Origin: an uncultured Candidatus Saccharibacteria bacterium
GTDB lineage: Bacteria > Patescibacteriota > Minisyncoccia > Phycocordibacterales > PCTT01
Length of the DNA: 62,357 bases
Assembly (NCBI GenBank): GCA_964566505.1
Contig: CAZMIM010000004.1
Coordinates: 1 to 62,357 of the forward strand
Reading direction: 5' to 3'
Under the pieces are notes generated by a model. It had not been told where the DNA came from and did no database searches. It saw only the letters and a program-made list of their open reading frames with translations. This document shows positions 10,109-42,600 of this stretch, one piece after another (position 1 is the first letter of the stretch; each line of letters begins with the position of its first letter). A program made the position numbers and the translations under genes.

Positions 10109-10143
10109 GTGGATAAAGCCGAGATATGAGTATCCACAAAGCC

Positions 10144-10182
10144 AAATCCGCCAAATGCAAATGATTTGCATTTGGCGGATTT
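10144..10182 (-). terminator. 39-nt perfect palindrome downstream of gatB (palindrome family 2)
   Basis: aaatccgccaaatgcaaat-g-atttgcatttggcggattt, lying between the gatB stop (10204) and the next gene start (10108). Confidence 0.6.
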
Positions 10183-10203
10183 GTATAAAAAATATTTACT
10201 CTT

Positions 10204-15961: not shown

Positions 15962-18166
15962 TTAAGGGTTTCTACCAGCCTCTATCTCAGAGATATAATA
16001 ATCTATCTGATCAGCGTATTGAGGAAAATCTCCTCGAGCATCTCTAAGCACACTTAGCGCACCAGCTCTGTCCCCCACATCTAGATACGAAGCAGCAAGA
16101 GAAAATCTCAACTGAGGATTGTTTGGGTTTGCCTCAACATTTGCACGCCACAACCTTATTACTTCAGATAAATTACCTGTATCAAAATATGCTTTGATAA
16201 TCAGATCGCTCGGCACTGCAGTGGTTCCATATCGCTCTTCAAGCAATTGATTGGCAAGCGCTATATTGCCGTTATATATAGCCCCCATTGCATATGCCTG
16301 TAATGCAAGATCAAATGATGTATCAAGCTCATATGCATCCTTAAACCACCTCAACGCAACTGCATCTTGATTTAAATTCAAATAGTTTGTTCCCATCTCA
16401 AGCATGAGATTTTGTTTATTTGGAGTAAGCTCAAGTGCTTTTTCTAAATTCAAAATTGCATCATCATACAAACGATATCGTGAAAAGATAGAACCAAGAA
16501 ATACATACAAGCGAGCATTCTGCGGATCATGTTCTATTTGTTTATTTATCTCCTCTACTGCCTTATTTAGGTATGCTTCTTTTGTTGATGTAGAAATTGA
16601 AGGAGAACTAGCTACGCCGCTCGTAACCTGTCCGAGCTGCTCGCGAATCTCCTGTCTAGCAAATGCCTGTTTTTCAAGTGCTATATCAAAATATGGAAGG
16701 GCCTGTTGGTGTTGCCCTCGAGCAACAACTTGAAGTGCATCAATAAGCGCGCCTGAGGCACTGACACCACGAACAGTAAATATAGAAATGAAAACAAACG
16801 CAATCACAACACCAACCGCAGGAGCGCCATATAGAGACCACCCATTTTTTATTTCCCACACTTCAGCGCTCTCCTCTATGTAACTATTTTTTATTGCATA
16901 AACAAATGCAATGATTAGTACAAAATATATGTAGCTCACTATATTATCGAACACAAAGAAGTTGTGTATTCCATATCCAATCAGAGCACCAGCTATAAGA
17001 GCACGCTCTGCTACACTTGAGTCTTCTTCTCGTGTTCGCCAAAGCATATGAAGCGTCAAAACAAAAAGTGAAATATAGAGCAAAAATCCTACTGCACCAC
17101 CAGAGACAAGCCAATCAAACAAAACATTGTGAGCTCTATCAAACCACTGCTCTTGTGCATACATTCGTGGGTCATAGTTTTTATTAAATACATAATTGAA
17201 ACTTTCTTGTCCCCAACCAAATATTGGCTTTTCTTTAAATCCATCAATTGCCATTCCCCATATGATAAATCGAGATTGTGTTGTACCGTCCTCAAGAGAA
17301 ATATCAGAAAGACGCTTAAGAGGAAGACTGTTCTGAACAATTGATGTATTTGAAAGTGCAAAAAACATTGCCACCAAAACAACAACACCAACAAGACCGC
17401 CTACGGCAAATTTTCTAAGTCGTGCATGGTTTTTCTCAAACAGAGCAACTAAGAGAAGAGTTACGACTCCACCACCAACAAGACCCAGTATTGCTCCACG
17501 AGTAGCTGTCATAAACAAAATATATGTATTCAATACAAAAACCAGACCATACAACCAAACCTTCCAGTCAAAACGATGTATTTTATTGTGCCGATGTATC
17601 AATAGCCATAGCGCGATAAAGACGTGGAATAACATATACACGGCCAAATATGCAGCATTTCCAAAGCTTGCATCAACACGCGTACTTCCTTGATGGATTG
17701 CGAGTACTCCACCCATCTGAAGTAATGCATAAAAAGAAACCAATACACTCACGCCAAGTGATGTATTCCAAAATCTTTCCCATATCTTTTTAGTACGAAA
17801 AACAGAAATAAGTACCAGGAAAAACAGAAACAAATGGAAAAGCGTAACCCAACCTTCCATACGTTCAAAATTACTCCAAAAACTCTTAAGCGTGTTTGGA
17901 CTCAAAAGATTTGAAATAGCCATAGACACCAAAAGCGCACCAAATGCATACAATATATATGATCCTTTTGGTCTATATTTAGGGGATCTAGATATCAAAA
18001 CAATCCAAAGCCCTACAATAAGAGCGACAATTATCCTAAAGAAAAAGTTTTTTCCAGTAATAAAAGGGAAAAATGTTGAGCTAGTTACAATGAATGGGAT
18101 TATCACAAGCGAAAATACTCCCCCAAAAATCGAATACAGTAATGTTTTCTCTAAATTCTTTATCAT
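15962..18166 (-). CDS. Wzy_C / O-antigen-ligase-family polytopic membrane protein with a C-terminal TPR domain
   Basis: About 12 TM helices, Wzy_C-like TATRGAILGL and RAHNVLFDWLVSGG motifs, and a C-terminal ~270 aa of TPR-like repeats. Confidence 0.8.
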   Translation of the reverse strand: MIKNLEKTLLYSIFGGVFSLVIIPFIVTSSTFFPFITGKNFFFRIIVALIVGLWIVLISRSPKYRPKGSYILYAFGALLVSMAISNLLSPNTLKSFWSNFERMEGWVTLFHLFLFFLVLISVFRTKKIWERFWNTSLGVSVLVSFYALLQMGGVLAIHQGSTRVDASFGNAAYLAVYMLFHVFIALWLLIHRHNKIHRFDWKVWLYGLVFVLNTYILFMTATRGAILGLVGGGVVTLLLVALFEKNHARLRKFAVGGLVGVVVLVAMFFALSNTSIVQNSLPLKRLSDISLEDGTTQSRFIIWGMAIDGFKEKPIFGWGQESFNYVFNKNYDPRMYAQEQWFDRAHNVLFDWLVSGGAVGFLLYISLFVLTLHMLWRTREEDSSVAERALIAGALIGYGIHNFFVFDNIVSYIYFVLIIAFVYAIKNSYIEESAEVWEIKNGWSLYGAPAVGVVIAFVFISIFTVRGVSASGALIDALQVVARGQHQQALPYFDIALEKQAFARQEIREQLGQVTSGVASSPSISTSTKEAYLNKAVEEINKQIEHDPQNARLYVFLGSIFSRYRLYDDAILNLEKALELTPNKQNLMLEMGTNYLNLNQDAVALRWFKDAYELDTSFDLALQAYAMGAIYNGNIALANQLLEERYGTTAVPSDLIIKAYFDTGNLSEVIRLWRANVEANPNNPQLRFSLAASYLDVGDRAGALSVLRDARGDFPQYADQIDYYISEIEAGRNP

Positions 18167-25546: not shown

Positions 25547-25649
25547 CCCGTTAGAAATTATTGATTATTAAATTAAATGTATTTATGCGCATATTACTTA
25601 TTTATGTATTTTGTAGTACTCCGTGAGTTTATTGAATTTCTAACGGGAC

Positions 25650-31942: not shown

Positions 31943-33520
31943 CTACTCACTCGATATGTCTTCTATATCAATATCCGACTCTGTTATATCCAAACCAGAA
32001 CCCAAATCAACCCCGTACTCAGAGTTGAGAACATCTTCTATGCTCACAACATTCTCCATAACATCTACATCTTTGTTATTCTCGGGCTCAAAAGAAAATA
32101 TCTCATCAACTCCAACTATCACAAACGAAAGAACCACAACACCTGCAAGAACAAGAACAGACACAGCCCACACCACAATAGAACCATCGAAAAACGGTTC
32201 TCCGCCACTATCTCTGTTTACCCCAGCAAGCGCCACACTTGCGCTCAAATCAGTCTCAATCTCATAATTTTCCTGAACTTCTTCTTCAGCCACAGGCGCT
32301 TCCTCAAAAACAGCAATTTCTGGCTCTATTTCATAGCTATTTTCCAAATGCAAATCATTTGCATTTGGAGTAGGGAGGCTTTGTTGAGCTATATTTTGAT
32401 TATTTTTAGCATATATATATGCAAGCGCTGTATTTGGATACAAAAGACGTATTTCATCATTCTCATCCACAAAAATGCCCGTTATAGAGCTGTCAAAACG
32501 CACCTCACTTCCCTTCTTTATATGGGTGCCATGAGGTATCTCAAAATATACATTCCCCGACTCTATATACCACCCTGAAACCTCTATATCATGCTCTGTT
32601 TCATTAACCACAGATATATAACCATCTGAAAGTTCTGTCTTTTCTATACTCACCTCACTAATCACAACATCTGCTGGTATTGCTGTTACATAAAGAGTGT
32701 CAGATGTAGAAAAGACTCCCGACACAACATCAAGCACAACAATATACTCACCCGGATATGTATATGTATGGACAACATCTTTACCTTCTGCCACACCGCC
32801 ATCACCAAAATTCCACCGATAACGCTCGGCATCGAGCGGTTCTCCATTTACACCTTCAGTTTGTGCAGAAAAAGAAACTCGTGAGCCCACAAGCTCTACT
32901 CTATCTTCTCCGCCATATGCCCGAATTGTCGGGAGCGGACCGGCAACAAATTGTGACGAGTTTGTATTTTGCTCTGTTTGATTTTGTTGATTTTGAGTCT
33001 CTTGGTTGTCCTCCTCCACGGCCTCTACACAATCTGCATCGCCCGGTGTTGCTAATGCAGGTACCCACACATCACCAGATAAAGTTAGAGTATTTCCATC
33101 ACCACTAGCCCCCGTTTCACTTGAATATGTATATGAGTCTGTTGTAGCGAGCTCTGTATCTCGAATCTCCAAAAGCTCTCCTGTGTTTGAAAGTGAAAAA
33201 GAACTATCAAAAAGTGTTCCTGAAAATGCTGGCCAATCAATCAAAAACTTTGAGTCATCAGATACAATCACTGCACTCTCTCCAGATAAAAGTGTCTTGT
33301 CTCCATATCCATCAACAAGTGAAAGACCGTGGTTTGAACCATTTTCAAAAAACTTCCATCCATCTATATCTACTGAGTCATTTCCCGAATTGCAAATCTC
33401 TATCCACTCACGCCCGCTATCAGAACCTTCAAGGTCGTACATTATTTCTGTTATCTTCACTTGAGCAGAAAGAGTAAACGGAATTAATAAAATAGAAAAT
33501 ATGTAGAGTATGTATTTCAT
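31943..33520 (-). CDS. secreted LTD - PKD - LTD protein with a C-terminal TM anchor and acidic tail
   Basis: Signal peptide MKYILYIFSILLIPFTLSA. Lamin-tail-domain motif ITEIMYDLEGSDSGREWIEICN and a second LTD-like region. PKD motif WNFGDGGVAEGKDVVHTYTYPGEY. C-terminal helix VVWAVSVLVLAGVVVLSFVIV. Confidence 0.75.
   Translation of the reverse strand: MKYILYIFSILLIPFTLSAQVKITEIMYDLEGSDSGREWIEICNSGNDSVDIDGWKFFENGSNHGLSLVDGYGDKTLLSGESAVIVSDDSKFLIDWPAFSGTLFDSSFSLSNTGELLEIRDTELATTDSYTYSSETGASGDGNTLTLSGDVWVPALATPGDADCVEAVEEDNQETQNQQNQTEQNTNSSQFVAGPLPTIRAYGGEDRVELVGSRVSFSAQTEGVNGEPLDAERYRWNFGDGGVAEGKDVVHTYTYPGEYIVVLDVVSGVFSTSDTLYVTAIPADVVISEVSIEKTELSDGYISVVNETEHDIEVSGWYIESGNVYFEIPHGTHIKKGSEVRFDSSITGIFVDENDEIRLLYPNTALAYIYAKNNQNIAQQSLPTPNANDLHLENSYEIEPEIAVFEEAPVAEEEVQENYEIETDLSASVALAGVNRDSGGEPFFDGSIVVWAVSVLVLAGVVVLSFVIVGVDEIFSFEPENNKDVDVMENVVSIEDVLNSEYGVDLGSGLDITESDIDIEDISSE
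32343..32369. repeat. palindrome family 2 copy inside the LTD-PKD CDS
   Basis: tccaaatgcaaat-c-atttgcatttgga. Its 25-nt core is identical to the 10151-10175 copy except the centre base. It is read in frame as PNANDLHLE. Confidence 0.8.
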
Positions 33521-35618: not shown

Positions 35619-38228
35619 CTAATATCCAAGGTTATACAGAGCCTGCACCTCGGCGTCTGTAAGTGTCCTGTTATATACTCTCACATCATCAACTGAACCA
35701 TCCCATCGAAAAGAGCTTCCCGTGGCACCAATATAAGAAGGTCCTGTTATGTCTATATTTGTAGAGTTAGACAATGTTCCAATACTTGTATTGTCTATAA
35801 ACAATTCTGCAGTTGTTCCAGTACGCCTAAAGACCAGATGGTGCCAATCTCCGTCATTATAAAAAGTTGTGGTGCGAATATAAGGACTACCTCCGCTCAT
35901 CCAATAAACCCATACTCCATATGAACCATCATTAAAATCAAAAGAAAGATTATTGCCTGAGCCAGAACCCAAATTAAAAGCATGCATTCTACTTGAACTA
36001 TCTGTTTTAAACCAAAAACTAACCGCAAGATCTCCTGTGCCAAAATCAAAGTCTGCTGTGTCAGGAATACTCACAGAATCGTCCGTTCCATCAAATAAAA
36101 GCGCCTGACCAATCTTTCCTATTGTAGTAGTTGTGGCAGATTGGCCTGAAATAGTTCCATTATTACCTTGTCCACTAACATCAGATACATTGCTATACAT
36201 GTCTTTCCCGTCAAAAGTCCAATGTCCAACTAGGCCGTCATTTGCACTACTTGTGAGCGTTTTATTTATCTTGCTTGGTCGAGTTGCGTTGTATATACGC
36301 TTTATCTCATCTTCACTAAGAGTTCTGGTTGCGTATATACGCAAGTCATCCATAGTGCCAATAAGACCAGCGCCAGAAGAGGCCCAATTCCTACCAATTC
36401 TATTTACAGGACCAGTGTTTGTTACATCAGAATCAACATCATTTGCATCCAATACTCCATCTACATACATGTCCATTGTTAATGTATCTCCATCATTTGC
36501 CCATACAAGATGATGCCATTCTCCGTCTGTTATATTTGTTACACCAGATTCAGTGTTCCAAACACCATCGTAGTGATAATAAGTTATTTTATTGCTTATT
36601 ATACGAAAAGCATTAGATACTGGTCCACCAGATTGATTGGTTAATATATCCATTGTGCCAGAACCAGTTGTTTTAACCCATGCAGATACAGTCCAGTCTG
36701 TATCACCTAGCTCAATGCTTGTATCTAAATCGACCTGATCATCAGTTCCATCAAAATACATTCCCTGACCTATTCTTCCTACTTCTGTATACGCACCTCC
36801 CTCAATATGTCCATCATTACCACCAATAACATCAAATACCGTGTCTGTATCAGTATCAGCACCATCAAATGTAAACCAGTGTGTAAGTCCAGAAATCTCT
36901 GAAAGATATTTCTTTGTACCAATATTTGTTTTTCCTAGGTTATATAGAGCTTTTACTTCAGTATCAGAAAGACTCCTGTTATATATACGAAATTCATCTA
37001 TTGGACCATCCCAATGCAACTCATTACTTGGATAAAATCTTTTACCTATTGCAAAGTCATTTCCTGAATCAGTATTAAGAAAATATCCAGAAGTAACAGC
37101 GCTTCCGTGTGAAAACGTTACTGTTTTTTCTACCCCATCTATATATATTCTGTTATCAGAACCATCAACAACAACTACAACGTGGTGCCACTCACCATCT
37201 TGATATGCAGTATGACCCTCTCTTACATACATACCCAATCGTGTTGTGCCACCTGAAGTAATATTAAAATTAAGACTTTCATCTGTATAAGAGCCAGTCC
37301 AAGAACCAACCCCAATGTTTCCATAGTTTGTAGTAGAACCATCTTCCCCAAAACCAAACACCACACCAGCACCAGTATCGCTTGTCTTAAACCAGGCTGA
37401 TATTGAACCAGAAGAAAGCGAGAGCTCAGAGCTTGAAATATCTACATACTCAGTAGAGCCATCAAAATCAAAAGCTCCATTATTGTCATTTTTATGACCT
37501 GTAGCGAGCGTGATACTATCAAATAAGTCGCCATGGTTTCCGTTTCCGCTCGAATCTGCCGCCTGAAGTTTTTGTACCGAAAAATCATCTACCAAAAAAT
37601 CCCCCTGTGATGCATTTGATGTAGTTCTAATATACGGATCAATGGTGGTGCTTGTAGATTCCACAACGGACCAGTAATGCGTCCAGGTTGTTGTAGATAT
37701 ATTAGAAAAAGAACCCCCAGACATATATGAAGCGCTTTCTCTTATAACTCCATTATTTATAGAAAAATATGGGGTTGTAGGAACATCGACATCTTTTACC
37801 CATGCAGACATAAAATACAACTCACCGTCTGCAGTAACCATACCATCCTCCCAAAAAGCAATAGAGCTTACCGTTGAGTTTGTAAGCCGTGCAGATTTAC
37901 TCCCTCTATATACATCAGTTGTCTCTTCTGCACGAGCGCCGTCTGTTTTTGCATCAAAGCTCCAGTTGCTTGTAACACCATCCTCCATGTCCCAGTTTGT
38001 ATTCAGCTCACCAGCACCTTGCCGCCCATCCACGCCGAGTTTCCAGTATCCTACAAGACCCAGATTATTGCTTGGCTTTTTCAACACCGCCGCCTCTACC
38101 ACATTCGGCATTATCAAAACCCCGAGCCCCAAAACCCCCACCACCAAAACCATTCCATATCTATTCCCTTTAGAGTGTGAGAACCTGGTTCTCACACTCT
38201 TTTTTGATTTATTCCAAAACATAGTCAT
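35619..38228 (-). CDS. membrane-anchored CBM-like + 3x LamG (Laminin_G_3 / concanavalin-A-like lectin) protein
   Basis: N-terminal anchor. Three repeats each ending in DEFRIYNRSLSDTEVKALYNLG, DDLRIYATRTLSEDEIKRIYN or DDVRVYNRTLTDAEVQALYNLG, with FDG(T/S)DD and (E/D)WHH(V/L)V cores. A CBM4_9-like N-domain precedes them. Confidence 0.8.
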   Translation of the reverse strand: MTMFWNKSKKSVRTRFSHSKGNRYGMVLVVGVLGLGVLIMPNVVEAAVLKKPSNNLGLVGYWKLGVDGRQGAGELNTNWDMEDGVTSNWSFDAKTDGARAEETTDVYRGSKSARLTNSTVSSIAFWEDGMVTADGELYFMSAWVKDVDVPTTPYFSINNGVIRESASYMSGGSFSNISTTTWTHYWSVVESTSTTIDPYIRTTSNASQGDFLVDDFSVQKLQAADSSGNGNHGDLFDSITLATGHKNDNNGAFDFDGSTEYVDISSSELSLSSGSISAWFKTSDTGAGVVFGFGEDGSTTNYGNIGVGSWTGSYTDESLNFNITSGGTTRLGMYVREGHTAYQDGEWHHVVVVVDGSDNRIYIDGVEKTVTFSHGSAVTSGYFLNTDSGNDFAIGKRFYPSNELHWDGPIDEFRIYNRSLSDTEVKALYNLGKTNIGTKKYLSEISGLTHWFTFDGADTDTDTVFDVIGGNDGHIEGGAYTEVGRIGQGMYFDGTDDQVDLDTSIELGDTDWTVSAWVKTTGSGTMDILTNQSGGPVSNAFRIISNKITYYHYDGVWNTESGVTNITDGEWHHLVWANDGDTLTMDMYVDGVLDANDVDSDVTNTGPVNRIGRNWASSGAGLIGTMDDLRIYATRTLSEDEIKRIYNATRPSKINKTLTSSANDGLVGHWTFDGKDMYSNVSDVSGQGNNGTISGQSATTTTIGKIGQALLFDGTDDSVSIPDTADFDFGTGDLAVSFWFKTDSSSRMHAFNLGSGSGNNLSFDFNDGSYGVWVYWMSGGSPYIRTTTFYNDGDWHHLVFRRTGTTAELFIDNTSIGTLSNSTNIDITGPSYIGATGSSFRWDGSVDDVRVYNRTLTDAEVQALYNLGY

Positions 38229-38904
38229 TGTTCATTTTATCAAGTTTCTGTATCAAATATTCTCTGGATAACTTCTTATACTGAGCTGGTGTATATTTAT
38301 ACAAATCATGCTTTTTAATTATTGGAGAATTCTTTCGCTTCCCTGAATAGTCACCCAAGCTACAAAAATCATAATCCTCAGCCCACTTATATGCCTTATC
38401 AAAATTCTTTATCGCACTTTTCAAGCCTCCTCTATAAAGTTCAAAAGGATTTTTTACATTTACATATATATGAACGAGTTCGAGATAATAATCAGAATCA
38501 ATGGTTTTTGACTTATATGCACCTTGGAAAATACTGCCTTTCTCTTCATATTTATTATTAAAGCTCATCGACATACTGCCGCACAAACTTTGCATAAATT
38601 TCGAAATCCCACCCTCTTCTATTTCTTCTAGAATCAAGTGAAAATGATTTGGCATAAGGCAATATGAAAGTATATTCACAACCGGCTCTCTATCTGCCCA
38701 CTCTTTTGGTCTTTCAAAATGTAGCCCTTTTTTAATAGAAGAAACATCTCTCTCCCAATATTCAGAATGATTTTTGTCATTTAAGTAATAAAGCATTTTT
38801 ATGAATCTCCACTTATCACTATCATCACGAACAATTTCCATACCACGAGCACCTCGCTTTATTACATGAACTATTGATCCTACTGTGTATGGTTCCCTTC
38901 TCAT
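38209..38904 (-). CDS. IS200/Y1-type HUH transposase of the REP-associated (RAYT) kind
   Basis: HUH motif in CLMPNHFHLIL and the Tyr region GSIFQGAYKSKTIDSDYYLELVHIYVNVKNP. It is adjacent to three identical palindromes. Its stop overlaps the LamG gene start by 20 nt. Confidence 0.8.
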   Translation of the reverse strand: MRREPYTVGSIVHVIKRGARGMEIVRDDSDKWRFIKMLYYLNDKNHSEYWERDVSSIKKGLHFERPKEWADREPVVNILSYCLMPNHFHLILEEIEEGGISKFMQSLCGSMSMSFNNKYEEKGSIFQGAYKSKTIDSDYYLELVHIYVNVKNPFELYRGGLKSAIKNFDKAYKWAEDYDFCSLGDYSGKRKNSPIIKKHDLYKYTPAQYKKLSREYLIQKLDKMNNDYVLE

Positions 38905-38919
38905 TTTTTCTTCTTATTA

Positions 38920-38946
38920 GTTTGGGAAGGTCAGACCTTCCCAAAC
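38920..38946. repeat. REP-like palindrome copy 1
   Basis: gtttgggaaggtc-a-gaccttcccaaac: perfect 13-bp arms. It sits between the RAYT start and the upstream gene stop. Confidence 0.9.
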
Positions 38947-38971
38947 TTAATTTAATGAAATTAATTTTAGG

Positions 38972-39616
38972 TTAGTTGAATTGCCAGGTATTAAGCACTT
39001 CTTGAAGCAAGGTGTCGAGTGATGCGTATGTGCTTATCTGGTAAAGATTATTTTTAAACACAAACCAAACCTCACGTGAACTACCTCCAAACGCTTCATT
39101 GTCAGAGAGAAATGCTAGCCCTTTCCCAGAGCGCTCCCCAAGCTCTACAGTCTGCCCATCTCTCACTACCATGTCAGGAATGTCTTCAAGAATTCGCGCT
39201 TTTGTAATATCAAATGTTTCATCTACTGGGGTTACATATATCTGTATCCCCTGCTTTCTTTCTGTGTTTTGAAATACATACACATCACTCCCTGCTTCCT
39301 CAAACTGGCCAAGTGTGAAATATTCAGGATATTTCAATGCAAAGCCATATTTCTGACTTTTAAATGATTTCCAAATACTTGTATCTATATTAGAGATAGT
39401 CTGTCCAACTGGCGCCTGTGTCTCATCTGAGTTTGGGAAGGTCTGACCTTCCCAAACTTCTGGTTGGGGGTTGAAGGTTATTTCACCCCAAGAAACTGAG
39501 TCGCCAGTATTGCTTTTAGGACTATCATTGAGCCAATTTATCGCAAAATACGCCCCTACCCCTACAAGCAAGATAATGAAAATATATGATATGTATTTTT
39601 GGATTTCTGTGTTCAT
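38972..39616 (-). CDS. membrane-anchored hypothetical protein carrying a REP copy in frame
   Basis: 214 aa. N-terminal anchor YISYIFIILLVGVGAYFAI, then a globular C-domain. It is flanked on both sides by REP copies. Confidence 0.6.
   Translation of the reverse strand: MNTEIQKYISYIFIILLVGVGAYFAINWLNDSPKSNTGDSVSWGEITFNPQPEVWEGQTFPNSDETQAPVGQTISNIDTSIWKSFKSQKYGFALKYPEYFTLGQFEEAGSDVYVFQNTERKQGIQIYVTPVDETFDITKARILEDIPDMVVRDGQTVELGERSGKGLAFLSDNEAFGGSSREVWFVFKNNLYQISTYASLDTLLQEVLNTWQFN
39431..39457. repeat. REP-like palindrome copy 2 (inside a CDS, centre base flipped)
   Basis: gtttgggaaggtc-t-gaccttcccaaac, read in frame as VWEGQTFPN (aa 54-62). Confidence 0.9.
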
Positions 39617-39629
39617 GTCTCTTTTTTAA

Positions 39630-39656
39630 GTTTGGGAAGGTCAGACCTTCCCAAAC
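39630..39656. repeat. REP-like palindrome copy 3
   Basis: Identical to copy 1. It lies 16 nt downstream of the giant ORF stop and 14 nt upstream of the next start. Confidence 0.9.
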
Positions 39657-39671
39657 TCTGTGTGAGTTGGG

Positions 39672-42600
39672 TTAGTTGGTTTGAGGGGTTGTTGTGGCTG
39701 TAGTTTCTGGAGCTTCTGTGGTTTCTACGGTTTCTGTAGTTTCTGTTGTGCTCTCTTCCTCTGTAGTCTCTTGCGAAGCAGGAGTTTCTTCTGTGCTCTC
39801 CTCTACAACTTCTTCAGTTATTACTTCTGCTGTAGTGGTTGCTGTATCCTCTGTAGTTTCCTCTTCTATTACAACTTCAGGTGTTGTTGTGGCTGTCTCT
39901 TCTGTAGTCTCTTCGATAGTTACCTCAGGCGTTGAAGTTGCTTGCTCTTCTGTGCTCTCGTCCTGCGTAGCCTCTGGCGAAGCAGGAGTCTCTGGAAGCT
40001 CTATTGGAGTATCAACTGAAGCTTGCTCTTGCTCTGGTGCTTGCTCTGTTACCTCTGGAGTCTCTTCCTCCACCGTTGCAAGACTATCAAGTGTTCCTTC
40101 TCCAACAATCACGATTCGGTCAACTCTTGCCTCTTCCCCGCTTTGTCCAACTGCCTTGTATGTGATTCGGTATGTTGTATCAAGTGACGTGTCGATTGAA
40201 ACTTGAGCCATCTCTACTCCGTCTACAAATACTGTGTATCCAAGCTCGTTTCCTGTCTCTGTGTCCACTACTCGAGCTCCCATGTCTGAGTACGTTGAGC
40301 CCTTAGCGATTCGTGATGGGTTTACTCCATTTAGTGTAATCTCTGGTGCAAGATTATTTACTACCACACCGCTCTCTTGTGTTTCTTCGTCTTCTACCAC
40401 TACAAGCTCACACTCACCAGCCTCTGAAACCATTGCTCCATTTCGAAGTACTACACAGTATGCGTCTCCTGTTTCTTGATCATAAAGTGTGATTCCTGAT
40501 GGTCGCTCTGGTGTACCTACTGTCAATGTATCTGCGAATAGGTTTGTGAAGTATGCGAATCCATTCTCGATTCGTGCTCCGAGGCTTTGTAAGAAGCCGA
40601 GGAGCGCGTCTTTGAATCCTGTTGTGAATGTTGCCACTGTTGTTGTAGCTGTTGATGTCGCAGTTGAAGTAGAAACTTCAAATACTCCTACAGCAACAGT
40701 TGATGTTGCTACAGAGCCACTTAGCTCGGCAACTTGGGCCTCAAGGTCTGTAAGTCGTGTGTCGAGTGCCTTCACAGCAGATAGTGTTACTGTTGTGAGC
40801 TTGTATAGGTCTACTCCACGACCATCAAGTGATAGAACTTCTGAAGGAGCTTCTTCTGCAATAAGTCCCATGAATCGTGTATCCTTTGTGTTTGTTGATG
40901 TATTGATGCTTGAGCCGTTGATATTTGCTTCATCATCAGAATATGAGTTTGTAAGGCCATCATGTCGTTGCTTGTAGTTGTATGTTGCAACCTTCATTGC
41001 TCGTATAGACTCAAGTGCGTGGTCATAATCAGAGTCAGCAAGATATTCAATATCTTCTTTTTCATCTCGAGTAGAGATATTTACAAATGACTGCGCTGCT
41101 ACATCTCCCATAACATGAAGGTCATATTCTGGTGTTGTAGTACCAATTCCGATTCGTCCTTCAGAGTCTACAAACACTTGTGATGTTACAAAGTTGTATG
41201 TATCAAGAACGAATACTTCGATAAGGTTGTCTGTGCTTCCGCTATTGTATGCTTCAAGTGCTCGAGCAATTACTCGTCCAGAATTTACCTGCTTCATAGC
41301 AACACCTGACTCACTTGAAAGCACAAGATAGTCACCAATCTCAATATCTCCTCCTTCTAGATTTACCTTCAAAGGCACACGACCTTTAAGGGCTACTGGC
41401 ACAGAATTTCCAATTTTCTGCCCAAGAAGGATACCTGGTTTTGTAGACACTATTCCCAAAACATCATCTCCTGCATGCGCTCGTCTTACAAGACCGACAA
41501 CATTCCCTGAAGTTGTCGCTGTATTAAGCGCAACCACTTCTCCAGCAGACAAGGTTGTGTCGAGTGTTGGGTAGTTCTCAGCAAGGTCGATTGCCGTTAC
41601 TGATGCAGACTCTGAATATATATAGCCTCGCGTACGAGATGTATCAGAGCAGTTTTCACCATTGTCATCTACGCACAAGAAGCCTTCGTTTATAACAACG
41701 TCTGAACCAGCATGTATCCTCCCAGAGACCATTAGACTCTCAACTCCTGTTGATACGCCCTTGTAAAACACTTCAAGCCACACAACATCTATATAGTGAT
41801 TTTGTGTATTACTATTGTCCAAAACGTACAAACTGATTCCGAAACCACTATTCTCTACATCTGCCTCAGAAATTGTTGTTCCCCAAAGACTATTTTCGGA
41901 ACCAGCAGTTTTTTCAGTGAATGTCGTATTGAGAACTCCAAAATATTCCGCAGTACCTGCAGCTGAACCAGCCTTCATAATTTGTGCATGCAATTGTGCG
42001 GTGGCTGCACTTAGTGAATAACCTTGTACATACGCCTTTACTCCAGTAACCGTAGCACCATCTGGTATAGAAATTCCAAAATCTGTAACCTCCAGTCTGT
42101 TTGATTGGTTTCCTACAGCAGGTGTTGCTTGTGTGTATGATACATCATCGAGCTGGGCATTTGATGGACTAGACCAAGCATATGAGCCTCCTCCGTCTGC
42201 AAAAGAACCTCCTGTTTTTTTGTTTGTGGTTAATTCAAACTGCGGTATAGCGGAAATGGTTGTGTATACATCGTCATGAGAAAGAGAAATACCTGATGTT
42301 GTTGTCGCTGAGCCTGATCTTCCAACAACAGACATTACCTCTGATGTTGGTGTCTTGTAAAAGACTTCAAGCCATACAACATCTACATAGTGATTTTGTG
42401 TATTACTATTGTCCAAAACGTACAAACTAATTCCGAAACCACTATTCTCTACGTCAGATTTAGAAATTGTAGTGCCCCACATGCTCGTAACGTTTTTTGT
42501 TGAGAGACTAGTATTAAAGATCCCAAAATATTGCGTAGTACCCGCCGCTGATCCTGCTTTCATAATTTGTGCATTAACCTGTCCAGTAGCAGCGGATTGT

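What the first reader, a model, noticed from the sequence alone, without database searches (positions are those of the whole stretch)
38209..39657. RAYT (IS200-like HUH transposase) with three copies of a perfect 27-nt palindrome: a compact REPtron-like locus
The 231-aa ORF has the HUH motif (PNHFHLIL) and the conserved Tyr region of REP-associated tyrosine transposases. Within 750 nt upstream of its start lie three copies of GTTTGGGAAGGTC-N-GACCTTCCCAAAC, at 38920-38946, 39431-39457 and 39630-39656. Copies 1 and 3 have centre A and copy 2 has centre T, so copy 2 is in inverted orientation. Classical REPs are imperfect palindromes with a GTAG-type 5' tetranucleotide, described mostly in Proteobacteria. 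These copies are perfect hairpins with a 1-nt loop and no obvious GTAG, in a CPR-like genome. The RAYT stop overlaps the LamG gene start by 20 nt, which suggests a domesticated, co-transcribed copy rather than a free IS.
Basis: partly seen in the sequence, partly recalled or inferred. Interest (0 to 1): 0.65.

Follow-up and report, generated by a model that had tools for sequence, protein, structure and literature searches.

The report
Hairpin-bracketed RAYT-like gene in CPR
A tiny CPR (Patescibacteria) genome carries one IS200-related single-strand DNA nuclease gene framed by perfect hairpin repeats, which also sit at about 20 other intergenic sites; this is a REP/RAYT-like repeat system in a bacterial group where the papers I searched do not describe one.

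Summary

Copy 2 lies inside a real coding gene.

Genome-wide (632 kb), the palindromes form one family of 24 copies:
- Stem changes are compensated.
- At least 20 copies are intergenic.
- There are four doublets.
- Sixty related genomes have 0-2 matches each.

The gene is single-copy. It belongs to a very large Patescibacteria family. In 58 of 76 homologue loci the same genome-specific palindrome sits on both flanks, against 4 of 168 control genes. Hairpin tip type follows the protein tree. The predicted fold best matches E. coli TnpA-REP bound to its REP hairpin.

My verdict is a REPtron-like (or TIRtron-like) system, a new variant of a known kind. It has untagged, fully symmetric hairpins and a protein closest to TnpAY1 subclass 2.1, for which no REPs were reported. 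It scores below NCBI's RAYT cut-off.

Its distribution is patchy, so "domesticated" is not shown. The claimed overlap with the LamG gene may be an ORF-calling artefact. Nuclease activity and mobility are inferred, not shown.

The parts
38209..38904 (-). 231-aa Y1 HUH nuclease gene (RAYT/TIRYT-like), single copy in the genome
   Evidence: Pfam Y1_Tnp 6e-11. NCBIfam REP_Tyr_transpos 28 bits, below the cut-off of 80. HUH and Tyr motifs invariant. AF2 pLDDT 90.6. Foldseek top hit 4ER8, TnpA-REP bound to REP. Only one genomic copy.
38172..38200 (.). 3'-flank palindrome, B type: AGAGTGTGAGAACC-T-GGTTCTCACACTCT
   Evidence: Perfect 14-bp arms. Member of the same 24-copy superfamily. The 78%-identical syntenic homologue L140 has this B-type hairpin on both flanks. 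Single-strand DNA fold -12.6 kcal/mol.
38919..38947 (.).
   Evidence: Single-strand DNA fold -13.2 kcal/mol with a 13-bp stem and 3-nt loop.
39430..39458 (.).
   Evidence: Homologues of the host protein align only from about residue 67 onward.
39629..39657 (.).
38972..39616 (-). 214-aa membrane-anchored PsbP_2-like host gene that carries palindrome copy 2
   Evidence: Pfam PsbP_2 7.5e-5, below the cut-off. Homologues follow fibre-protein genes in G014 and L140.
35619..38228 (-). LamG-domain host gene downstream. The true start is either 38228 (through the B hairpin, overlapping the RAYT gene) or about 38153.
   Evidence: Pfam Laminin_G_3 1.5e-64. Sequence read. Comparison with L140.

Best explanation
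This is a REPtron-like system of a CPR/Patescibacteria bacterium. A single-copy 231-aa Y1 HUH nuclease, related to IS200 TnpA and RAYT, is encoded between two hairpin-forming palindromes. On single-stranded DNA, most likely the lagging-strand template, the protein probably recognises the hairpin largely through its tip (...GTC-N-GAC...). It would then cut and rejoin DNA beside the hairpin through its HUH-bound metal and Tyr147. By this route it would copy or move the hairpins, singly or as A+B doublets, to other, mostly intergenic, sites in trans. Over longer times the whole hairpin-gene-hairpin unit of about 780 bp would also move.

Shown: the anatomy, conservation of the catalytic motifs, the fold, the dispersal and intergenic bias of the hairpins, compensatory stem changes, the genome-specific and paralogue-specific bracketing across the family, and the link between hairpin tip and protein clade.

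Inferred: binding, cleavage and ligation chemistry, the single-strand DNA substrate, and present-day mobility.
For: - Catalytic core: HUH and Tyr are invariant in 24 homologues. The confident AF2 model (pLDDT 90.6) best matches 4ER8, E. coli TnpA-REP bound to a REP hairpin (E 4.9e-5), then IS608 and ISDra2 TnpA.
- The gene is single-copy (the second weak hit lies in rplJ).
- The A and B palindromes form one family of 24 copies in 632 kb. Sixty relatives have 0-2 matches each and reversed-pattern controls give 0.
- At least 20 of 24 copies are intergenic, with binomial P = 3e-15 at 88% coding. Four copies lie within 1.5 kb of the gene, P = 4e-7.
- Nine of 13 stem pairs show double-sided compensatory changes and 95% of cells are paired. 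The covariation score is 0.49 against 0.22 in shuffles (0 of 500 reach it), and slid controls score 0.20 or less.
- Four A+B doublets (C1:23619/23650, C1:112159/112189, C1:267053/267094, C3:45962/45991) have the same composition as the gene's two flanks, one A and one B hairpin, without the gene.
- Family-wide, 58 of 76 homologue loci share an identical palindromic segment of 12 nt or more between the upstream and downstream flanks. Only 4 of 168 control genes do (Fisher P = 6e-35).
- One 0.7-Mb genome has 13 diverged paralogues. At least seven of them carry their own distinct palindrome on both flanks.
- Hairpin tip and loop type tracks the protein tree: 26 changes against 38.2 +/- 1.5 in 1000 shuffles, none as low.
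- In relatives the tip motif AAGTCNGACTT occurs 4-21 times per genome in 8 of 9 genomes, against 0-6 for the control, often as doublets.
- Same-genus genomes lack both this RAYT type and this palindrome family.
Against: - There is no biochemical or population evidence of cleavage or movement.
- The protein is far from the characterised RAYTs: NCBIfam 28 bits against a cut-off of 80, and a PDB sequence search finds only ISDra2 TnpA at E 0.02.
- The hairpins lack the GT[AG]G guide tetranucleotide that defines canonical REPs.
- The Tyr motif is Y-x3-K-N-P, one residue longer than the class-2 signature Y-x3-N-P.
- Copy number is low (24), so most copies could be old.
- The patchy distribution (39 of 61 same-order genomes, 0-13 copies) fits a mobile gene unit as well as a domesticated one.
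- The genome holds several other palindrome families with no known partner, so palindromes can evidently spread or persist here by other routes too.
Confidence: 0.68

Rival explanations
1. It is an autonomous IS200-like insertion sequence. The hairpin-gene-hairpin unit is itself the mobile element, with the hairpins as its left and right ends. The dispersed palindromes would be solo ends or decayed MITE-like remnants, not a population maintained in trans.
For: - The layout (a subterminal hairpin on each side of a lone Y1 gene, about 780 bp) is that of IS200.
- Homologues at 66-70% identity sit in unrelated genomic contexts (L143 beside ParE; L146 beside NYN and GreA), whereas the 78% homologue is syntenic.
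- Distribution is patchy and same-genus genomes lack the gene.
- Some genomes have up to 13 copies, and L064 has a tandem duplicate.
Against: - There is a single copy here, and no near-identical copies were seen in any genome examined. The 13 paralogues of G051 are diverged and each has a different hairpin.
- Palindromes outnumber genes 24 to 1 and keep perfect pairing through compensated changes, which decaying remnants would not.
- The protein has 231 aa rather than about 150, and it lacks the Y-x3-Q motif of IS200 TnpA (PMC6006769 Table 1).
- NCBIfam gives no IS200-family hit at E below 0.01.
Confidence: 0.2
2. The palindromes are host regulatory or structural elements, such as terminators, mRNA stabilisers, operators of a dimeric regulator or cruciform sites. 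On this view they merely also flank the Y1 gene, for example to insulate or autoregulate it, and are not processed by it.
For: - Most copies lie just after the 3' ends of genes.
- The B hairpin followed by a T run scores as terminator-like on the + strand.
- The genome has other palindrome families, such as AACGGCTCATTTT..., that look like bidirectional terminators and abut A/B copies.
Against: - None of the four hairpins is terminator-like on the strand of the local genes.
- The sequence is specific to this genome and absent from same-genus relatives. A host regulator's site would be conserved.
- Brackets are paralogue-specific within one genome, and the hairpin tip follows the protein clade. 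Both point to recognition by the Y1 protein itself.
- One copy is inside a coding sequence.
Confidence: 0.08
3. The pattern is a chance or assembly artefact.
For: The genome is a metagenome-type assembly of 8 contigs, and such repeats can be collapsed or chimeric.
Against: - Shuffles give 0 expected matches.
- The 24 copies lie on 4 contigs with unique flanks.
- The same architecture recurs in dozens of independent assemblies.
Confidence: 0.01

Closest known systems
E. coli REPtron: TnpA-REP (RayT/YafM, TnpAY1 subclass 2.2) with REP/BIME sequences (PDB 4ER8; PMC3479197, PMC8266576)
   Same: A single-copy Y1 HUH/Tyr gene is flanked by the hairpin repeats that are dispersed in extragenic space. 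More than one hairpin subtype surrounds the gene (Y/Z2 in E. coli, A/B here). It is the best structural match. Repeats cluster next to other hairpins, as in BIMEs.
   Different: There is no GT[AG]G tag. The stems are perfect, fully symmetric and without bulges. There are about 24 copies rather than hundreds. The protein has 231 aa against 165, with only 16% identity, and scores below the RAYT HMM cut-off. The Tyr motif is Y-x3-KNP.
Pseudomonas REPIN-RAYT systems (Bertels and Rainey; PMC3116915, PMC5581495)
   Same: Hairpin doublets and singlets are dispersed between genes. Each RAYT paralogue has its own repeat family. The gene is single-copy.
   Different: The doublets here pair two different subtypes (A+B) instead of two inverted identical REPs. 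In relatives such as L012 they are true inverted doublets. The population is much smaller. Vertical inheritance is not supported here.
TIRtrons / TIRYT (Di Nocera 2013, PMC3733652) = TnpAY1 subclass 2.1, Bertels group 1 (Quentin 2018, PMC6006769)
   Same: Length and motifs fit: about 231 against 238 aa, with NH[YF]H and FQ in place of WQ. Sister CPR paralogues carry Y[IV]HLNP. The flanking repeats are untagged, and some TIR families are self-complementary and moderately repeated.
   Different: Quentin et al. found no REP-like sequence next to subclass 2.1 genes. Here both flanks carry complete hairpins in 76% of loci. No C-terminal HTH-like Pfam domain was found. There is no GGGGWSAS motif. 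The host phylum is not in those surveys.
IS200 / IS608 / ISDra2 (IS200/IS605 family, TnpAY1 subclass 1.1)
   Same: The catalytic fold is the same. A lone tnpA lies between two subterminal hairpins. The mechanism is presumed to be hairpin-guided and to act on single-stranded DNA.
   Different: The gene is not multicopy or near-identical. It lacks Y-x3-Q, has an extra N-terminal segment and a C-terminal domain of about 80 aa, has no tnpB, and its hairpins are perfect and identical at both ends.

Membership tests
RAYT / TnpA-REP (TnpAY1 class 2) | HUH motif and catalytic Tyr on a Y1 (IS200-like) fold | tested here: met
   NHFH and Y147 are invariant. Pfam Y1_Tnp 43 bits, above the cut-off of 23. 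Foldseek top hit is 4ER8.
RAYT / TnpA-REP (TnpAY1 class 2) | Class-2 Tyr signature Y-x3-N-P (PMC6006769) | tested here: inconclusive
   The window's clade has Y-[IV]-x-V-K-N-P, with N-P one position later. Sister CPR paralogues have YIHLNP.
RAYT / TnpA-REP (TnpAY1 class 2) | Score above NCBIfam NF047646 (REP_Tyr_transpos equivalog) cut-off | tested here: not met
   28 bits against a cut-off of 80. Sister paralogues score 31-44 bits.
RAYT / TnpA-REP (TnpAY1 class 2) | Gene flanked by palindromes that are also over-represented in the genome's extragenic space | tested here: met
   Hairpins lie on both flanks. There are 24 copies, at least 20 intergenic. Flanks match in 58 of 76 homologue loci.
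RAYT / TnpA-REP (TnpAY1 class 2) | 5' GT[AG]G guide tetranucleotide at the hairpin foot | tested here: not met
   The feet read AGTTTGGG and AGAGTGTG. Relatives have unrelated feet.
RAYT / TnpA-REP (TnpAY1 class 2) | One or few copies per genome, with no near-identical duplicates | tested here: met
   One copy in G000. Relatives have 0-13 copies, which are diverged where examined.
RAYT / TnpA-REP (TnpAY1 class 2) | Predominantly vertical inheritance (domestication, Bertels 2017) | tested here: not met
   Same-genus genomes lack this type, and it is present in only 9 other families of the order. Homologues at 66-70% identity sit in different contexts.
RAYT / TnpA-REP (TnpAY1 class 2) | Sequence-specific cleavage and rejoining of single-stranded hairpin DNA | not testable with these tools
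   Needs biochemistry.
IS200/IS605 TnpA (subclass 1.1) | Y-x3-Q motif, about 150-aa core only, multicopy near-identical elements | tested here: not met
   The motif is Y-x3-KNP, the protein is 231 aa and the gene is single-copy. No NCBIfam IS200 hit.
IS200/IS605 TnpA (subclass 1.1) | Subterminal hairpins at both ends of the gene-bearing unit | tested here: met
TIRYT / TnpAY1 subclass 2.1 | NH[YF]H, FQ, about 238 aa | tested here: met
   NHFH, IFQG and 231 aa, compared with Table 1 of PMC6006769.
TIRYT / TnpAY1 subclass 2.1 | C-terminal HTH-like domain (Bac_DnaA_C / HTH_23 / HTH_28) and GGGGWSAS-type TIRs | tested here: not met
   No Pfam hit for residues 151-231 at E up to 10. The flanks are complete palindromes without GGGGWSAS.

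The most novel reading that the evidence does not exclude
Patescibacteria carry a very large, undescribed clade of Y1 HUH nucleases: 221 clusters (at 50% identity) match at E <= 1e-30, and homologues occur in 39 of 61 same-order genomes. In this reading each member reads its own untagged, perfectly symmetric hairpin through the hairpin tip rather than through a 5' guide tetranucleotide. Up to 13 mutually orthogonal protein-hairpin pairs would then coexist in one 0.7-Mb genome. That would be a distinct recognition mode for REP/RAYT-type systems, a major shaper of intergenic DNA in the smallest bacterial genomes, and a natural library of orthogonal HUH-tag and single-strand DNA pairs.
Probability: 0.3. 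Interest if true: 0.75.

Novelty: new variant of a known kind. Interest (0 to 1): 0.58.

Why it matters
REP/RAYT systems have been studied almost entirely in Proteobacteria and a few other phyla. The two large surveys (PMC5581495, PMC6006769) predate CPR genomes, and they found no repeats beside the subclass this protein most resembles.

Here a streamlined 0.63-Mb genome still maintains a hairpin population with its nuclease. The same bracket architecture recurs across hundreds of Patescibacteria.

- It offers many natural protein-hairpin pairs with which to work out how Y1 nucleases choose hairpins without a GTAG guide.
- It bears on how intragenomic replicators persist in minimal genomes.
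- It flags these hairpins as likely causes of ORF-calling errors, such as extended starts and in-frame insertions, in CPR annotations.

Tried and rejected
- A second weak Y1_Tnp hit (C2:51238-51408, 13.9 bits, with a TAG) looked like a RAYT remnant. It lies inside the ribosomal protein L10 gene and is a false positive.
- Empty-site comparison with same-genus genomes by DNA search failed because there is no DNA-level similarity.
- Rfam gave only sub-threshold noise over 37900-39900.
- The intrinsic-terminator reading was set aside. None of the four hairpins is terminator-like on the gene strand.
- The PDB sequence search was nearly blind (ISDra2 TnpA, E 0.02), so fold comparison was used instead.
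- Pfam found nothing in the N-terminal 74 or C-terminal 81 residues.
- Whether copy 2 is a clean 27-nt insertion could not be settled. The linker of the syntenic homologue (L140) has a similar length but unrelated sequence.
- I made no formal phylogeny against reference RAYT and IS200 sets, since no reference sequences were held. Placement rests on HMM scores, motifs and fold.
- No consistent target-site or flank asymmetry was found around the 24 copies, apart from a frequent A...T extension.

Full report
**Observation**

The three perfect copies of GTTTGGGAAGGTC-N-GACCTTCCCAAAC are at 38920-38946, 39431-39457 and 39630-39656, with centres A, T and A. Shuffled sequence gives none.

The ORF at 38209-38904 (-) encodes 231 aa. 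It matches Pfam Y1_Tnp (6e-11, 43 bits against a cut-off of 23) and, below threshold, NCBIfam REP_Tyr_transpos (28 bits against 80).

Three points change the picture.
- Copy 2 lies in frame inside a real gene. This is a 214-aa membrane-anchored PsbP_2-like protein, and the palindrome sits in the variable linker that precedes the part conserved in homologues.
- A fourth perfect palindrome, AGAGTGTGAGAACC-T-GGTTCTCACACTCT (38172-38200), lies 9 nt beyond the RAYT stop codon. Hairpins therefore bracket the gene.
- The 20-nt overlap with the LamG gene depends on using the first ATG (38228). That choice makes the B hairpin encode KSVRTRFSH. A start at 38153 (MVLVVGVLGLG...) is equally possible. The frame stays open through the hairpin in the syntenic relative L140 too, so I leave this undecided.

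**The palindromes in the whole genome**

The window is contig C4 of a 631,788-bp, 8-contig, 40% G+C genome, 97% complete. The best protein hits are named Paceibacteria-type CPR lineages such as Kaiser-, Adler-, Nomura- and Taylorbacteria.

The exact 27-mer has 8 copies at 3 mismatches or fewer. The genome also holds compensated variants: GTTTGGGAGAGTC..., GTTTGGGGAAGTC... and GTTTGGGAGAACC.... Intermediates lead to the B type (GAGTGGGAGAACC, GAGTGTGAGAGTC, GAGTGTGAGAACC).

One degenerate pattern covers all of them. It finds 24 copies in this genome, 0-2 in each of 60 relatives including the two same-genus genomes, and 0 for the reversed control.

- On an alignment of the 24 copies, 95% of cells pair and 9 of 13 stem positions show double-sided compensatory changes.
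- The covariation score is 0.49 against 0.22 in shuffles (0 of 500 reach it), and 0.20 or less when partners are slid.
- The centre base is A in 13 copies, T in 10 and C in 1.
- As single-stranded DNA each palindrome folds into a 13-bp stem with a 3-nt loop (-13.2 and -12.6 kcal/mol, z about -5 to -6).

By a crude gene map (88% coding), at least 20 of 24 copies are intergenic (binomial P = 3e-15), mostly just after 3' ends of genes. Four copies lie within 1.5 kb of the Y1 gene (P = 4e-7).

Four sites carry an A-type and a B-type hairpin 2-14 nt apart: C1:23619/23650, C1:112159/112189, C1:267053/267094 and C3:45962/45991. These doublets combine one A-type and one B-type hairpin, as the gene's two flanks do, but without the gene.

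**The protein**

It is the only Y1 gene in the genome. The second weak hit lies in rplJ.

It has more than 1,588 homologous clusters at about 50-55% identity and about 230 aa, essentially all from Patescibacteria. An exhaustive profile search of 1.84 billion representatives gives 221 clusters at E <= 1e-30 and 5,477 at E <= 1e-10.

In 24 homologues the following are invariant: H13, K16-R17-G18, R20-G21, N86-H87, H89 (HUH), Y147, and K151-N152 followed by the conserved P153.

The AlphaFold2 model is confident (pLDDT 90.6, pTM 0.88). Its best PDB match is 4ER8, E. coli TnpA-REP bound to a REP hairpin (E 4.9e-5), followed by IS608, ISDra2 and IS200 transposases. Sequence-only PDB search sees only ISDra2 TnpA at E 0.02. 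No Pfam domain is detected in the N-terminal 74 or C-terminal 81 residues.

**The bracket is a family trait**

I fetched 80 homologue loci from species-representative genomes. Of the 76 with both flanks available, 58 share an identical segment of 12 nt or more (median 19 nt) between the 120 nt upstream and the 120 nt downstream of the gene. These shared segments are largely the genome-specific flanking hairpins seen. Only 4 of 168 other genes in the same loci do so, and one of those is a second copy of the gene (Fisher P = 6e-35).

The closest homologues behave the same way.
- L140 (78% identity, syntenic: PsbP-like, then RAYT, then the LamG-like gene) has the B-type hairpin on both flanks.
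- L143 and L146 (70% and 66% identity) have three or four copies of TGGCTAAGTC-A-GACTTAGCCA around the gene, in unrelated genomic neighbourhoods.
- In one 0.7-Mb genome (G051), 13 diverged paralogues were found. At least seven of them each have their own palindrome on both sides. The two close-type paralogues of G048 likewise have different hairpins.

On a protein tree of 81 homologues, the hairpin tip and loop type changes 26 times against 38.2 +/- 1.5 in 1000 label shuffles, none as low. In the window's well-supported clade, every hairpin recovered but one (L012, where the repeat-level palindrome of a hairpin doublet was picked instead) has the tip ...GTC-N-GAC.... Other clades have GTT-N-AAC, AGG-N5-CCT, GGC-AAG-GCC and so on. 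This is a FastTree topology and the labels come from my own script, so I take it as strong but not final evidence of co-evolution.

In nine relatives with the AAGTC-N-GACTT tip, that 11-mer occurs 1-21 times per genome (4 or more in eight of them) against 0-6 for the reversed control. The copies lie on many contigs and are often doublets about 20 nt apart with alternating centre base, that is, inverted and REPIN-like.

**Distribution**

Among 60 same-order genomes, 38 (39 of 61 counting the window's own genome) have at least one homologue (0-13 copies). The two same-genus genomes have only distant paralogues (147 and 108 bits against 392 for self). The close type (over 250 bits) appears in eight other families. 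The same-genus genomes also lack the A/B palindromes.

So gene type and repeat family co-occur. The pattern is patchy, which fits transfer and loss better than long vertical inheritance.

**Comparison with what is known**

In Quentin et al. 2018 (PMC6006769, Table 1), class-2 TnpAY1 (RAYT) proteins carry Y-x3-N-P. Subclass 2.1 (Bertels group 1) is about 238 aa with NH[YF]H, FQ and Y[IV]HLNP. [quoted passage not shown]

The window's protein has NHFH, IFQG and 231 aa, but Y-[IV]-x-V-K-N-P. Its CPR sister paralogues have YIHLNP and score 31-44 bits on the RAYT model. The CPR family is therefore closest to subclass 2.1 / TIRYT. It lacks that subclass's HTH-like C-terminal Pfam matches and the GGGGWSAS TIR motif (PMC3733652).

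Canonical REPs are defined by a GT[AG]G tag at the foot of an imperfect hairpin. These hairpins have no such tag and are perfectly symmetric.

Neither survey included CPR genomes. My searches found no paper linking RAYTs or REPs to Patescibacteria, apart from a KEGG K07491 mention for an archaeal locus.

**Interpretation**

The best-supported reading (about 0.68) is a REPtron-like system. A hairpin-specific single-strand DNA nuclease/ligase acts on the palindromes that frame its gene and are scattered through intergenic DNA, with specificity probably set largely by the hairpin tip.

The main rival (about 0.2) is that the hairpin-gene-hairpin unit is simply an IS200-like insertion sequence and the solo hairpins are remnants. 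The different contexts of close homologues and the patchy distribution show that the unit does move on evolutionary time scales. However, the 24:1 ratio of hairpins to gene, their maintained pairing, and the absence of near-identical gene copies fit a trans-mobilised repeat population better. The two readings are not exclusive.

A purely regulatory or terminator role for the hairpins (about 0.08) does not explain their genome specificity or the paralogue-specific brackets.

Binding, cleavage, the single-strand DNA substrate and present-day mobility are all inferred. I could run no experiment or read-level test.

**Verdict**

The finding is real and its core interpretation holds. It is a new variant of a known kind. 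It is of moderate to good interest because of the host group, the untagged symmetric hairpins, and the breadth and orthogonality of the family.

Noticed in passing
G000 C1:1289-1329, 16639-16665, 25607-25637, 68651-68689, 76521-76556, 199778-199818 and about 25 more sites: A second, larger palindrome family: (AAAAACC)AACGGCTCATTTT-N-AAAATGAGCCGTT(GGTTTTT), with about 30 copies. It is flanked by A and T runs like a bidirectional terminator and often directly abuts A/B hairpins, giving BIME-like clusters. No partner gene was identified.
   Followed up: partly
window 10143-10183 and 32343-32369; also C1:205183, C1:278677, C3:48876, C5:4510, C5:31502: A third palindrome family, CCAAATGCAAAT-N-ATTTGCATTTGG (about 12 copies). 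Further families are GTTGAAGTAGT-N4-ACTACTTCAAC (about 8), CCTGCCTGCCGGCAGGCAGG (5, also seen in L024) and TGTTACGTAGCA/TGCTACGTAACA.
   Followed up: no
window 38972-59561; L125 1492-3553; L140 3-1237: The giant fibre protein's C-terminal region followed by a PsbP_2-like membrane protein is a conserved adjacent gene pair in other Patescibacteria. In the window, REP-like hairpins sit between the two genes and inside the second.
   Followed up: partly
G051 (loci L103-L115): A 0.7-Mb relative carries 13 diverged Y1 paralogues. At least seven of them are framed by their own distinct palindrome. This is an unusually rich set of apparently orthogonal protein-hairpin pairs.
   Followed up: partly
L064 1284-2990: The hairpin-gene-hairpin unit appears tandemly duplicated with a 925-nt period (hairpins at 1284/1507/2035 and 2209/2432/2960). 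This could be a real duplication or an assembly artefact.
   Followed up: no
window 38153-38228: The LamG gene's annotated-style start runs through the B hairpin and overlaps the RAYT gene. REP-like hairpins next to start codons may systematically mislead ORF callers in CPR genomes. The same overlapping call was made on L140.
   Followed up: partly
L146 313-341 and 1686-1725: The contig of a 66%-identical homologue also carries AAGTTGTGGGAGTC-T-GACTCCCACAACTT, which resembles the window's B/A types. It also has a GAAGGTCTGACCTTGGC...GCCAAGGTCAGACCTTC inverted doublet, so several related hairpin subtypes coexist there too.
   Followed up: no
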